Shown: one piece after another, positions 48,441 to 54,578 of the stretch
Numbering within the stretch: position 1 is the first letter of the stretch
How the letters are laid out: each line of letters opens with the position of its first letter
NCBI RefSeq assembly: GCF_026571515.1
Contig: NW_026852998.1
Coordinates: forward strand, 434,001 to 498,000
Direction of reading: 5' to 3'
DNA from: Ruditapes philippinarum
Lineage: Eukaryota
Length of the DNA: 64,000 bases
Notes under the pieces: generated by a model
Told to the model about the DNA's origin: nothing
Databases searched by the model: none
What the model saw: the letters and a program-made list of their open reading frames with translations, nothing else
Translations under genes and position numbers: made by a program

Positions 48441-49635
48441 AACGCTTTATCATAAAAGTGTTAAACAAAGCCAAATTTTACAAGTCCTCTGCCTGCTAAT
48501 ATTAACTTCAAGGAGTGTTTACCTGTTCTTGGTTTCACATCAAGTATGTTGTATACCTTTTCTACCAAATGCTGATTTTTATTATTTTTTTTTTTGGTGG
48601 CGGAGGTGGATATTGAACAAACATAGGGTGTTGACGTGGTGGGGACCGTTAATCAAAGCTGAAACAGATGATAAAACAAATGTAAGACTAACAATCTTTT
48701 ACCAAAGATGAATTAAAAATATTATCACACATTGATCTTAAGTCAAAGAAAATTCCAAATGCTTTTATCAAAATTCTTAGAACAGGACAAGTGCTCATAC
48801 ATGTTAATCTGACAATCAGAAATATTACATATTCTGTAGCGGTATTCAAACCCAACAACTTAATGCAGGACAGTTTATATTGTTTGATTTATTATTAACT
48901 TTACTGTTATTCACATATTTGTAAAAGTTTGCAGTTTCCAAGAAAATTAGGGCACCCTAACAGATGTTACCCTTCATTTGAGACAGCTGTAAATGCATCT
49001 GCGTATATATTGTATAAATCCAATTTCAGATCAATATTTACAATATAAAACTTTGCAACAGCTTAAAATTAAACTTTGCAACAGCTTAAAATTAAAGTCT
49101 GCAAGAAAAACGTGTAAATTAAAAAAGCTCATTTTCTTGGGACCAAGTCATGTGTATATCTTATATAATCATATAGTTATTTGTAAATGGATGAACATTT
49201 CATTATACTCTATTTAAAACAGTTCAATCTCAAGACATCATGTTCGAAAAATGGTAATTAGTTCCTTTAAAAATATTAAAGAATTAGCCAATTCAATGTT
49301 TTACTGCAAATTATAATTATCAAAATATCATGTACATATTTACAAGATCTTGTTTATTGTGATGGTCTCAAATATCAATATGGGTCCTATAAATAAAAAC
49401 TTGATATCTGAGAGACACGGATGACGCCGCTATATATATTAGGACATCAAATAATATAAAGGGTTGTTATGTCCAAGTACATTATATAAAGACTATCCAT
49501 AAAGTTATATAAATTAATTGCCAATGCAAAAAAAATCTGGACAGCAATGGCAACAGAAAGTGACAACATGACTGTGGCAATAGCTCGCATTTATTTTCTG
49601 TGAAAATGTCAAGCTAAAAATGATGTGCATAATCT

Positions 49636-51669
49636 CCATACTGCCATCTATCTATTTTTCCATACTGCCATCTATCCATATTTCCATACTGCCATCTATC
49701 TATTTTTCCATACTGCCATCTATCCATATTCCCATACTGCCATCTATCCATATTCCCATACTGCCATCTATCCATATTTCCATACTGCCATCTATCCATA
49801 TTTCCATACTGCCATCTATCCATATTCCCATACTGCCATCTATCCATATTCCCATACTGCCATCTATCCATATTCCCATACTGCCATCTATCCATATTCC
49901 CATACTGCCATCTATCCATATTCCCATACTGCCATCTATCCATATTCCCATACTGCCATCTATCCATATTTCCATACTGCCATCTATCCATATTTCTATA
50001 TATACTGCCATCTATCCATATTCCATACTGCCATCTATCCATATTCCCATACTGCCATCTATCCATATTTCCATACTGCCATCTATCCATATTTCTATAC
50101 TGCCATCTATCCATATTCCCATACTGCCATCTATCCATATTCCATACTGCCATCTATCCATATTCCCATACTGCCATCTATCCATATTTCCATACTGCCA
50201 TCTATCCATATTTCTATACTGCCATCTATCCATATTCCCATACTGCCATCTATCCATATTCCCATACTGCCATCTATCCATATTCCCATACTGCCATCTA
50301 TCCATATTCCATACTGCCATCTATCCATATTTCCATACTGCCATCTATCCATATTTATACTGCCATCTATATTTCCATACTGTCATCTATCCATATTCCC
50401 ATACTGCCATCTATCCATATTCCCATACTGTCATCTATCCATATTCGCATACTGTCATCTATCCATATTCCCATACTGCCATCTATCCATATTTCCATAC
50501 TGTCATCTATCCATATTCCCATACTGTCATCTATCCATATTCCCATACTGCCATCTATCCATATTTCTATACTGCCATCTATCCATATTCCCATACTGTC
50601 ATCTATCCATATTCCCATACTGCCATCTATCCATATTCCCATACTGTCATCTATCCATATTCCCATACTGCCATCTATCCATATTTCTATACTGTCATCT
50701 ATCCATATTCCCATACTGCCATCTATCCATATTCCCATACTGCCATCTATCCATATTTCTATACTGCCATCTATCCATATTTCTATACTGCCATCTATCC
50801 ATATTTCTATACTGCCATCTATCCATATTCCCATACTGTCATCTATCCATATTCCATACTGCCATCTATCCATATTCCCATACTGCCATCTATCCATATT
50901 CCCATACTGCCATCTATCCATATTCCCATACTGCCATCTATCCATATTCCCATACTGCCATCTATCCATATTCCCATACTGCCATCTATCCATATTCCCA
51001 TACTGCCATCTATCCATATTTCCATACTGCCATCTATCCATATTTCTATACTGCCATCTATCCATATTTCTATACTGCCATCTATCCATATTCCCATACT
51101 GCCATCTATCCATATTTCCATACTGTCATCTATCCATATTCCCATACTGCCATCTATCAATATTCCCATACTGCCATCTATCCATATTTCCATACTGCCA
51201 TCTATCCATATTTCCATACTGCCATCTATCCATATTTCTATACTGCCATCTATCCATATTTCTATACTGCCATCTATCCATATTCCCATACTGCCATCTA
51301 TCCATATTTCCATACTGCCATCTATCCATATTTCCATACTGCCATCTATCCATATTCCCATACTGCCATCTATCCATATTCCCATACTGCCATCTATCCA
51401 TATTCCCATACTGTCATCTATCCATATTCCCATACTGCCATCTATCCATATTCCCATACTGCCATCTATCCATATTCCCATACTGCCATCTATCCATATT
51501 CCCATACTGCCATCTATCCATATTTCCATACTGCCATCTATCCATATTCCCATACTGCCATCTATCCATATTTCCAAACTGCCATCTATCCATATTCCCA
51601 TACTGCCATCTATCCATATTTCTATACTGCCATCTATCCATATTTCCATACTGCCATCTATCCATATTT
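49636..51669. repeat. 24-bp minisatellite (CCATACTGCCATCTATCCATATTY), about 85 copies
   Basis: Highly homogeneous tandem array. It explains the (ILPSIHIP)n, (HTAIYPYS)n and (MDRWQYGN)n ORFs. Confidence 0.97.
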
Positions 51670-52155
51670 CAAGTTTCATAGTACATGTACTTTTTAGTTA
51701 TCACGGAACACGTATTTGCGGACAGAAATACTAACTTACTGACAAACGGGCGGACGTGCCAACATTTGAGGCTTATGTGCTTTTTCTTCGATTCTTATGT
51801 GTCACTTTTCCCCATAAACCAGTAAAAATTACCACATAAATCGACTGTTTTATGGGATTTCCACCTTTTTATTTAACTACAATTACGGAAGGAATGAAGC
51901 TCATAGTCCATTGTAATTATTAGATCAAGGAACATTGAAATATTTCACACCAATGTACTGTTAAACCTTTTGCACAGGTTACTTTACCCATGCAAGGGGA
52001 TGGGGTGTGAAATACTTACCAGGTTTATAGTGTGTACATGTACAAACATATAGTCCTAGATTTTTCCAAACTATCACAATGATTTCTGCATGATTCACAA
52101 TTGCTTATTATCACAGTGAAATGCCAAATCTGAAAGTCTATACAATATGAATGTG

Positions 52156-52666
52156 TACGAGGGGTGTCCAAATTGTAATGCAATTCGATGCGTTTTGCGA
52201 GTAGGTATTTAAATAGCGCAAACCTGATTATCGCATTCCTTCAAACACGGATTTATATTACAATGTAATATAAATCCGTGCTTCAAAGTACTACTTTTGA
52301 ACCAATTTTCAAATGCATTTTGATAGTCATTTTGTCCAAAAATGTAATTTTTCCAGCTTTAGAAAGTTACGTAGAATGACAGAATTGTGGCATGAAGCAT
52401 TGTCGTGCAACAGCCGAATACCATACAGACCTGCCGCTGGCCTTCGTTTGTTGAAAGTTTTTCCTCAGTCTTGCCATTGACAGATTGCCCTTTTGATACA
52501 GCTTTTTGCACAGGGGGCCCACACAGTGTTTGGATGGTATATACTGCTTGATGGTGCCAGAAATATTACATATATCATTATCAGCATTTATAGCAGTTTT
52601 TGCTCAGCTTTTAAAGCAAACCCGTATTTCAGCACTTTTAACTGAGCATTGGACAGCCATTACATA
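52156..52666 (-). mobile_element. Mariner transposon remnant (internally deleted)
   Basis: End TACGAGGGGTGTCCAA, with a degraded opposite end TTGGACAGCC. The minus strand at about 52432-52348 encodes GLYGIRLLHDNASCHNSVILRNFLKLEK (HDNA catalytic motif). C-terminal YFEGMR* is restored when the 52246-52287 insertion is removed. Confidence 0.75.
52246..52280. mobile_element. 35-bp perfect hairpin with a 7-bp TSD; probable P/Galileo-superfamily excision footprint
   Basis: CACGGATTTATATTACA-A-TGTAATATAAATCCGTG, flanked by CTTCAAA at 52239-52245 and 52281-52287. Confidence 0.7.
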
Positions 52667-53360: not shown

Positions 53361-54578
53361 AACAAGCAATTATCATAGTATTGCAAGCAATCCATAAGTC
53401 CCCTACCGGTAAGAGCCCAAGCAACATTCTGAAGGGCCATTTGCCATTCACTTATGTTCCTATTTTAAGTAAATTTGTTGAAAAAGTTCTTTAAAAGTGA
53501 TCACAGGAAACAGTTTTTATGTACAGACAGACGGACTGAAGGACACTCTAAAGTTATTTTTTAAACATCCCTGTTATCAAAATATATCATTTTTAAAATC
53601 CTATCATGATTGAAGAAGTTGGAGTAAAAATTACCAATTTCTCAAAAAAAAATCTAAGTTCAAAAGGGGCATAATTCTGGAAATAGTCTTGCTAGAGTAC
53701 TGGACCATCACAAATGTTGAGTGATAATAAGAAACATTTATATGAAGTTTGAAGTAGATACATTCAGAAAAAAAAGTTATTAAAAAAAAAAAAAAAAACA
53801 ATGTTTTTTCATGAAAATTTTAAGTTCAAGGGAGGTAATTCTGATAAATTTTGTGCTAGAGTTGTAAACCTTGTCACATATGATGTGGTTGATTACAAGC
53901 AACTTATATTTAAAGTTTGAAGAAAATACCTTAAGTAATAAAGAACTTATAGTGAAAAAACTTAAAAACTAGAATCAGAAATCTTGAAATTCAGTCTATT
54001 TGTTGCCATAGCAACCAGAATTTTCAACATAGGAAGATAAGAAAAGGATGTGCATAATTTCCATACTGCCATATACCCATATGTCAAGTTTCATAAACAT
54101 ATTTTCAGTACTTTTAGTGTTATCACTGGATCCAGGTTATGTGTAAAATTTGCCATATTTTCAGTCTATTTGTTGCCATAGCAACCAGAATTTTCAACAT
54201 AGGAAGAAAAGAAAACGACGTGCATAATCTCCATACTGCCATCTATCCATATATCAAGTTTCATAAAAATATTTTCAGTACTTTTTGCGTTATTGCGGGA
54301 TCCAGGTTATGTGTAAAATTTGCCATATTTTCAGTCTATTTGTTGCCATAGCAACCAGAATTTTCAACATAGGAAGAAAAGAAAAAGACGTGCATAATCT
54401 CCATACTGCCATCTATCCATATATCAAGTTTCATTAAAATATTTTCAGTAGTTTTTGTGTTATCGCGGGATCCAGTTTTGTGGACGGACGGACTACGGAC
54501 GGACAGACGGACGGACGGACGGACAGACGGACGGAGGGTAAACCTAAAATCCCCTCCGGTAAACCGGTAGGGGACTAA
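53361..54578 (+). mobile_element. HINE/pearl-type element, composite, with three 170-bp core repeats
   Basis: AACAAG start and subterminal inverted repeats AGTCCCCTACCGGT (53397) / ACCGGTAGGGGACT (54563), with terminal hairpin TCCCCTCCGGTAAACCGGTAGGGGA. (GGAC/AGAC)n at 54481-54535. Units at 53991, 54161 and 54331. Confidence 0.8.

What the first reader, a model, noticed from the sequence alone, without database searches (positions are those of the whole stretch)
52239..52287. 17+1+17 bp hairpin with a 7-bp TSD: likely P/Galileo-type excision footprint in a non-insect genome
Seen: a perfect 17-bp inverted repeat starting CAC, one central base, and flanking CTTCAAA duplications. Removing the insert and one duplication restores the host mariner C-terminus (TAC TTT GAA GGA ATG CGA TAA, YFEGMR*), which strongly supports an insertion. 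Known: Drosophila P transposase makes staggered cuts that leave 17-nt extensions of terminal sequence at the donor site, so end-joining leaves about 15-17 bp of each TIR between the TSDs. P-superfamily elements begin with CA, and Galileo makes 7-bp TSDs. Inference: a P-superfamily transposase with the same 17-nt cleavage geometry acted recently in this germline, since the arms have no mismatches.
Basis: partly seen in the sequence, partly recalled or inferred. Interest (0 to 1): 0.7.

Follow-up and report, generated by a model that had tools for sequence, protein, structure and literature searches.

The report
P-transposon scars reveal cutting landmark
This 35-base hairpin is one of over 1,400 similar remnants in this animal genome, likely scars left when a relative of the fruit-fly P jumping gene cut itself out; a sister family with one extra base in its tip leaves scars one base longer, so the enzyme likely places its inner cut by a sequence landmark rather than by counting 17 bases.

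Summary
Confirmed. The hairpin is the first 17 nt of both ends of a non-coding ~2-kb element (30-bp terminal repeats, 7-bp target duplications; about 200 copies), joined by one base inside an old mariner-type fragment. The genome holds 1,408 such two-ended remnants; only 2 clearly run past nt 18. Joins are 1-2-nt microhomologies or arm-like fillers, as at Drosophila P excision sites. A 9.9-kb sister element with the same inner repeat core and a 7-bp duplication encodes a frameshifted P transposase (PDB 6P5A, E 5e-15; all eight listed GTP-site residues kept). The 2-kb family's own master and a THAP domain were not found. New point: the sister family's left end has one extra base, and its scars keep 18 nt (68 of 73) while standard arms keep 17 (nt 18 matched in 278 of 1,063). 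The inner cut likely follows the landmark ACA|RGGAT, not a 17-base ruler. It is not Galileo, and activity is not shown to be current. This scan reported similar scars (18-20 nt) and the landmark idea in another genome; here there is a within-element control.

The parts
52239..52245 (+). Left copy of the 7-bp target-site duplication
   Evidence: Sequence; single copy in host paralogues
52246..52262 (+). Nt 1-17 of one terminal repeat of the 2-kb P-type element (likely the 3' overhang left on the donor flank)
   Evidence: Exact match to the first 17 nt of the 30-bp repeat
52263..52263 (+). One junction base (A); likely added during end joining, though it also equals nt 18 of one element end
   Evidence: A follows a full standard arm in 278 of 1,063 cases
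52264..52280 (-). Nt 1-17 of the other terminal repeat
   Evidence: Perfect reverse complement of 52246-52262
52281..52287 (+). Right copy of the 7-bp target-site duplication
   Evidence: Sequence
52156..52508 (-). Host: 3' fragment of an old Tc1/mariner-type element (end of the transposase frame and its terminus)
   Evidence: Paralogues 72-91% identical; translations show LLHDNA, PYSPD and YFE-type motifs (naming these motifs as mariner is from recall)
52509..52556 (+). 48-bp terminus of an unrelated high-copy repeat family matching the long terminal repeat of the P-like element in L109; it truncates the host
   Evidence: 98% over 48 bp to L109; very high depth and mixed flanks in reads

Best explanation
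The hairpin is likely the repaired donor site of a P-superfamily transposon: the enzyme likely cut flush at each end on one strand and 17 nt inside on the other, at a point likely set by the inner core of the terminal repeat, and end joining would then have fused the two leftover tails between the old 7-bp duplication. Shown: the arms equal nt 1-17 of a 30-bp terminal repeat; scars stop there genome-wide; a sister element with the same core encodes a P transposase; one extra base in the outer repeat moves the stop from 17 to 18. Inferred: the order insertion-then-excision at this site; the 3' polarity of the tails; the repair pathway (polymerase-theta-like or classical end joining); that the enzyme which moved the 2-kb family was a close relative of the C4936 transposase; that the landmark works through binding of the inner repeat half and re-pairing of the looped strand, as in the fly structure.
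For: Parent family: five of five full ~2-3 kb copies examined have 30-bp repeats, exact 7-bp duplications and no transposase frame; 395 ends genome-wide. Ceiling: 1,408 remnants, control 0; 19 have G after nt 17 and none continues as GGAT; 6 have purine+G after nt 17 and only 2 run on into the element. In the first 50 listed remnants (38 independent sites after merging copies carried by host repeats) 34 of 76 arms are exactly 17 nt, 28 sites have at least one full arm, 27 have an exact 7-bp duplication and 7 more one mismatch. Joins: 15 microhomology, 3 blunt, 8 short and 12 longer insertions; in 12 of 15 direct joins the last A of a full arm overlaps a T of the trimmed arm (3/8 expected, p 0.001). 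The same junction classes are reported for fly P excision (PMC2895639, passages). Transposase link: C4936:146,543-156,451 has an exact 7-bp duplication, a right end matching the repeat at 28 of 30 and the 2-kb family's end at 69% over 340 bp, Pfam PF21787, PF21788 and PF21789, best and only PDB hit 6P5A with K385, K400, V401, S409, F443, D444, N447, D528 and E531 aligned to identical residues (residue list from PMC7776569 section 8). A second copy (C5360) is collinear from the transposase to about 1 kb before the repeat. Eleven complete 1.8-6.5 kb deletion derivatives of this element have exact duplications, ten of 7 bp and one of 8. Landmark test: their left end has one extra base; 112 scars carry it (control 1); 68 of 73 arms reaching nt 17 keep nt 18, the next base matches nt 19 in only 13 of 68 and none continues further (counted by hand), whereas standard arms match nt 18 in 278 of 1,063.
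Against: No autonomous element with the exact ends of the 2-kb family was found (59 transposase-bearing neighbourhoods fetched; only 100 of 334 full repeats were listed). The one linked transposase is frameshifted and its left end is itself cut back to 17 nt. No THAP domain was detected. Other P-like families here with long repeats leave few scars (28 against a control of 12), so the scar type is not general to every P-like element in this genome. About 28 of the 68 18-nt scars are one identical sequence, which may partly be one event copied by a host repeat; their flanks could not be fetched. The internal repeat needed for strand re-pairing (nt 19-22 equal nt 4-7) is only borderline (p 0.046). 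No filled or empty allele of this locus was seen in 6 runs laid.
Confidence: 0.88

Rival explanations
1. The hairpins are a self-mobile mini-element (a 35-bp MITE) that inserts as such and makes its own 7-bp duplication.
For: Each has its own duplication; the exact 35-mer recurs at unrelated sites (9 loci among the first 100 of 278 rows); scars outnumber elements about five to one.
Against: Lengths run from 22 to 43 bp with many different junctions in a sample of 39; arms are asymmetric; the conserved inner core (nt 18-30), which the fly enzyme contacts (PMC7776569 section 8), is missing; repeated identical scars that could be checked shared flanks, that is, were copied inside a host repeat.
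Confidence: 0.04
2. The remnants are ordinary internal deletions from aborted gap repair or hairpin-driven slippage, without any special cut.
For: Such products exist: 30+15 and 41+13 remnants, one-sided 17- and 18-nt ends joined to internal DNA, and shorter alleles of this very scar in other individuals.
Against: Random deletion would not stop at nt 17 in more than 99.5% of 1,408 cases, nor shift to nt 18 exactly when the end gains one base.
Confidence: 0.03
3. The mechanism is as described, but the 2-kb family was moved by a different, non-P enzyme or by a host-domesticated P-derived nuclease that excises more than it integrates.
For: No master for the 2-kb family; no THAP; five or more scars per surviving element; zebrafish THAP9 excises but does not integrate (PMC10983969, abstract and passages).
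Against: Both ends of the 2-kb family are homologous to those of the P-encoding family (79% over 67 bp and 69% over 340 bp); about a third of sister-family scars pair the longer arm with the 2-kb-type arm (21 of 68 by hand); both families have young copies with fresh duplications, so integration worked.
Confidence: 0.05

Closest known systems
Drosophila melanogaster P element and its donor-site repair products (PMC7776569, passages and section 8; PMC2895639, passages; PDB 6P5A)
   Same: About 30-bp terminal repeat starting CA; remnants limited to 17 nt per end; microhomology, blunt and filler junctions; transposase with RNase H fold, GTP-binding insertion and the listed GTP-site residues.
   Different: 7-bp instead of 8-bp duplication; no THAP domain detected; a second, antisense gene in the autonomous-type element; scars are fixed by the thousand in a natural genome; one end type leaves 18 nt.
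Galileo and 1360/Hoppel (PMC3698922 and PMC2775673, passages)
   Same: P superfamily, 7-bp duplication.
   Different: Galileo has long, internally repetitive terminal repeats; here they are 30 bp. No sequence comparison with 1360 was made.
BuT5 MITE and its P master in the Drosophila repleta group (PMC3698922, passages)
   Same: Non-coding element of uniform size that resembles a P element only at its ends.
   Different: BuT5 has 3-bp repeats, 8-9-bp duplications and about 1 kb; the passages searched contain no 'footprint'.
Zebrafish Pdre / THAP9 (PMC10983969, abstract and passages)
   Same: P-like elements outside insects with deleted derivatives.
   Different: 13-bp repeats, 8-bp duplication; the passages read do not map the inner cut for that enzyme.

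Membership tests
P superfamily | [quoted passage not shown] | tested here: met
   C4936 element: PF21787 96 bits, PF21788 71 bits, PF21789 26 bits; only PDB hit 6P5A, E 4.6e-15. Met for the sister element, not for a master of the 2-kb family.
P superfamily | Catalytic acidic residues and GTP-site residues | tested here: met
   E531 and all eight GTP-site residues listed in PMC7776569 align to identical residues; the D303 motif is present (ITSDG against IVSDL) but one position off in the printed alignment; D230 lies outside the aligned stretch.
P superfamily | N-terminal THAP domain | tested here: inconclusive
   No Pfam hit in the N-terminal frame or in two paralogues' N-terminal frames; atlas hits under 0.9. 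The copy is broken and rearranged, and a short 5' exon could be missed.
P superfamily | Short terminal inverted repeats (about 30 bp) beginning CA | tested here: met
   30 bp with one variable position; 31 bp at the sister family's left end.
P superfamily | 7- or 8-bp target-site duplication | tested here: met
   7 bp exact in 27 of 38 scar sites, 5 of 5 2-kb-family copies, 10 of 11 sister copies.
P superfamily | Long staggered cut leaving about 17 nt of each end at the donor site | tested here: met
   Genomic proxy only: ceiling at nt 17 or 18.
P superfamily | 3' polarity of the tails and GTP dependence of cleavage | not testable with these tools
   Join registers fit 3' tails but need biochemistry.
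P superfamily | Looped strand can re-pair with the 5' part of the cut strand (built-in short repeat) | tested here: inconclusive
   Nt 19-22 equal nt 4-7; shuffle p 0.046. The structure paper with the exact register was not held.
P superfamily | An autonomous copy with the scar's exact ends | tested here: inconclusive
   Not found among the loci fetched; only a sister element.
Galileo | Long, internally repetitive terminal repeats | tested here: not met
   Repeat ends at nt 30.
Galileo | 7-bp duplication | tested here: met
Self-mobile MITE (the 35-bp unit itself) | Uniform length and sequence across independent sites | tested here: not met
   22-43 bp, many junctions.

The most novel reading that the evidence does not exclude
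P-superfamily transposases do not measure 17 bases: they nick just outside a conserved inner core of the terminal repeat and tolerate a loop of variable length, so one enzyme leaves 18 nt at one end and 17 nt at the other of the same element. This lineage does so without a recognisable THAP domain, and its scars form a fossil log of more than a thousand germline break repairs in a mollusc, including captured LINE copies.
Probability: 0.65. Interest if true: 0.65.

Novelty: new variant of a known kind. Interest (0 to 1): 0.55.

Why it matters
[quoted passage not shown] These scars show the same geometry in a distant animal and supply a natural one-base insertion experiment on how the inner cut is placed, which can be tested directly with the fly enzyme. 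They also give a count of past jumps (about five scars per surviving copy) and a large natural sample of germline end-joining products in a group without genetic tools. Three literature searches aimed at this and one on bivalve transposons (PMC10294476 has no 'P element', 'footprint' or 'excision' in its main text) showed no report of it; subscription journals, Repbase entries and supplements were not seen, and two key papers were not held.

Tried and rejected
Search for the 2-kb family's master: long repeat pairs and single ends (20 stretches) were 2-kb copies with later insertions; ends with other sub-terminal bases (read) were variants or fragments; 40 PF21787 neighbourhoods, further profile and PF21788 hits and the closest paralogues of the C4936 protein carried no matching repeat except C4936. 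No transposase remnant in the 2-kb interior (tblastn, best E 0.009). Metagenome scan for the repeat: 0. Atlas search of the antisense frame: no usable hit. Scars of the long-repeat P-like families: near chance, with a few candidates (two with exact 8-bp duplications), not pursued. An 18-nt tail at the A-type end of the 2-kb family was considered for the central A and judged unlikely (26% A after standard arms; the homologous sister end stops before AGG), but not excluded for single events. Raw reads of X23 covered the unique part of the locus at depth 1-2 only and say nothing on alleles. The Ghanim 2019 and Beall and Rio 1997 papers were not held.

Full report
Observation. The window shows a 7-bp duplication (52239-52245, 52281-52287) around two perfect 17-bp arms and one central A. 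It is the only hairpin of this quality in the window (z -7.6). It sits in the 3' end of an old Tc1/mariner-type fragment on the minus strand. Paralogues of that host are 72-91% identical and carry one copy of the 7-bp site and no hairpin, so the 42 bp are an addition. The window is G000:C1485; the genome has 1.41 Gb in 15,874 contigs. Earlier notes of this scan call it a clam or mollusc; I did not test that.

Parent family. The 17-mer has 2,043 exact matches (control 1). In 334 places it continues as a 30-bp terminal repeat; a 20-base pattern finds 395 ends, about 200 elements. Five full copies examined measure 1,959-2,886 bp, have exact 7-bp duplications and no transposase frame; six copies compared are 87-98% identical to one reference copy. 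Target sites favour T at position 2 and A at position 6 of the duplication (44 sites, symmetrised).

Scars. A 10+10-base pattern with 0-30 bases between finds 1,408 two-ended remnants (control 0). I fetched the first 50 listed loci. Twelve are extra copies of two scars carried by host repeats, leaving 38 sites (one more, L269, probably belongs to the same repeat). Lengths are 22-43 bp; with arms capped at 17, 34 of 76 arms are full, 28 sites have one or more full arms and 6 have two; 27 have an exact 7-bp duplication, 7 one mismatch, 4 more than one (two of these are exact 8-bp or near-8-bp cases). Genome-wide, 19 remnants have G after nt 17, and all read as the start of the other arm or a filler; 6 have purine+G, of which 2 truly extend (30 and 41 nt), 2 are ambiguous by one or two bases and 2 are filler. 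Scaled up, about 1,050 independent scars face about 200 elements, roughly five to one; this ignores haplotype duplicates in the assembly, which affect both.

Junctions. Of 38 sites, 15 are microhomology joins, 3 blunt, 8 have 1-3 added bases and 12 have four or more, mostly AT-rich and like the arms. Among 15 direct joins with a full arm, 12 overlap that arm's last A with a T of the trimmed partner (expected 3/8; p 0.001). This fits a 3' end priming on the other tail. Fly P excision leaves 17-nt non-complementary 3' overhangs and gives the same five junction classes (PMC2895639, passages; PMC7776569, passages).

Transposase. The 45 PF21787 hits are mostly a group of 6-10 kb elements with long repeats starting CAC or CAA and 7- or 8-bp duplications; none has this repeat. 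One locus does: C4936:146,543-156,451 is bounded by an exact 7-bp duplication, ends in the family repeat (28 of 30) and matches the 2-kb element's end at 69% over 340 bp. It holds a P transposase broken by a frame change, whose C-terminal part hits three P-specific Pfam models and only PDB 6P5A, with E531 and all eight listed GTP-site residues identical. A paralogue on C5360 is collinear at mostly 74-90% from the transposase to about 1 kb before the repeat, and pieces of a second, antisense gene found beside other P transposases bracket it, so the gene belongs to the bounded unit. Twelve further loci carry this right end at 94-99%; eleven are complete non-coding derivatives, mostly 3.3-3.5 kb, with exact duplications. 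Their two ends are homologous to those of the 2-kb family. No THAP domain was detected, and no intact master was found. The 2-kb family is thus tied to P through a sister family, not through its own master.

The landmark test. In ten of the eleven sister copies the left repeat has one extra base after nt 6, so the core (A/G)GGATCGGACACT starts at nt 19 on the left and nt 18 on the right. There are 112 scars with the longer arm. Of 73 such arms that reach nt 17, 68 keep nt 18; the next base matches nt 19 in 13 of 68 and none goes further (hand count). Standard arms match nt 18 in 278 of 1,063 cases (the denominator is inflated by repeat-borne copies, about a third after rough correction). In the 100 listed rows the partner arm stops at 17 except for two ambiguous rows, and 16 rows join the partner's last two bases to nt 14-15 of the longer arm (hand count). 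So within one element the two ends leave 18 and 17 nt, each stopping at ACA before the core. The simplest reading is that the nick is positioned from the inner half of the repeat, which the fly enzyme's helix-turn-helix contacts, while the outer part loops out and partly re-pairs (PMC7776569 section 8). The repeat here has nt 19-22 equal to nt 4-7, as such re-pairing would need, but this is borderline by itself (p 0.046). Caveat: about 28 of the 68 scars are one identical 30-mer, the analogue of the commonest join in the 2-kb family; their flanks could not be fetched. The other 40 show the same 18-nt arm in varied junctions.

This locus in other individuals. Contigs of X3, X6, X15 and X18 carry the scar or reach into its second arm (X18 may be the source of the window). 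X18 and X19 (one study) also have a contig that jumps from 52265 to 52277, bridged by 221 letters in X19; X15 has one lacking 23 bases, with only about 30 letters beyond the join. These may be later deletions of the hairpin, separate excisions or assembly effects. No empty or filled allele was seen; contigs cannot show absence.

Verdict. The feature is real and is best read as a P-type excision scar (0.88). The scar class is known from fly experiments; a natural genome-wide set with a built-in one-base control for the cut position was not found in the searches named above. Papers seen: PMC7776569 (passages, section 8), PMC2895639, PMC10983969, PMC3698922, PMC2775673, PMC10294476 (passages only); others as search listings only; no supplements.

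Noticed in passing
L032:101-2212 (G000:C35) and L035:101-675 (G000:C191): 3' fragments of two different LINE-like elements (one with a PF00078 frame, both with short tandem tails) lie between two full 17-nt arms inside one duplication, with arm-like filler at the joins: possibly retrotransposon copies captured at the excision break. Two cases among the pairs in the first 100 rows.
   Followed up: partly
window 52246-52287 in runs X15, X18, X19: Contigs with an 11-base and a 23-base shorter form of this scar; later deletion, independent excision or assembly effect.
   Followed up: partly
window 52509-52556: Terminus of a very high-copy repeat matching the long terminal repeat of the P-like element in L109; no two-ended scars of this terminus were found, unlike the family studied.
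   Followed up: partly
L095:473-8291, L097, L100; L109:7211-8821: Long-repeat P-like elements with a second gene: a PIF1-like helicase (PF05970, E 8.5e-28) in a 7.8-kb element with an 8-bp duplication, and a PHD finger in another.
   Followed up: no
L092:1128-2138 (-) and L092:9079-9468 (-): Two pieces of an unknown antisense gene (a C2H2-like finger and a 337-aa frame without family) that recur beside several P transposases of this clade.
   Followed up: partly
L020, L022, L023, L026, L030; L010, L016: Two single scars were multiplied because they lie inside other repeats that later spread (12 extra copies in 50 loci).
   Followed up: yes
L199, L214, L216, L363; C4936 left end: One-sided products: a 17- or 18-nt arm joined directly to internal element DNA, as aborted gap repair would give.
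   Followed up: partly
L239, L273, L274, L275, L278: Candidate scars of other CAC-ended families (14-18-nt arms; two with exact 8-bp duplications).
   Followed up: no
window 49,500-51,670: About 2 kb array of a 24-bp tandem repeat that gives long spurious open frames.
   Followed up: no
window 53,990-54,499: Three tandem copies of a 170-bp unit within a repeat with GGAC-type microsatellite.
   Followed up: no
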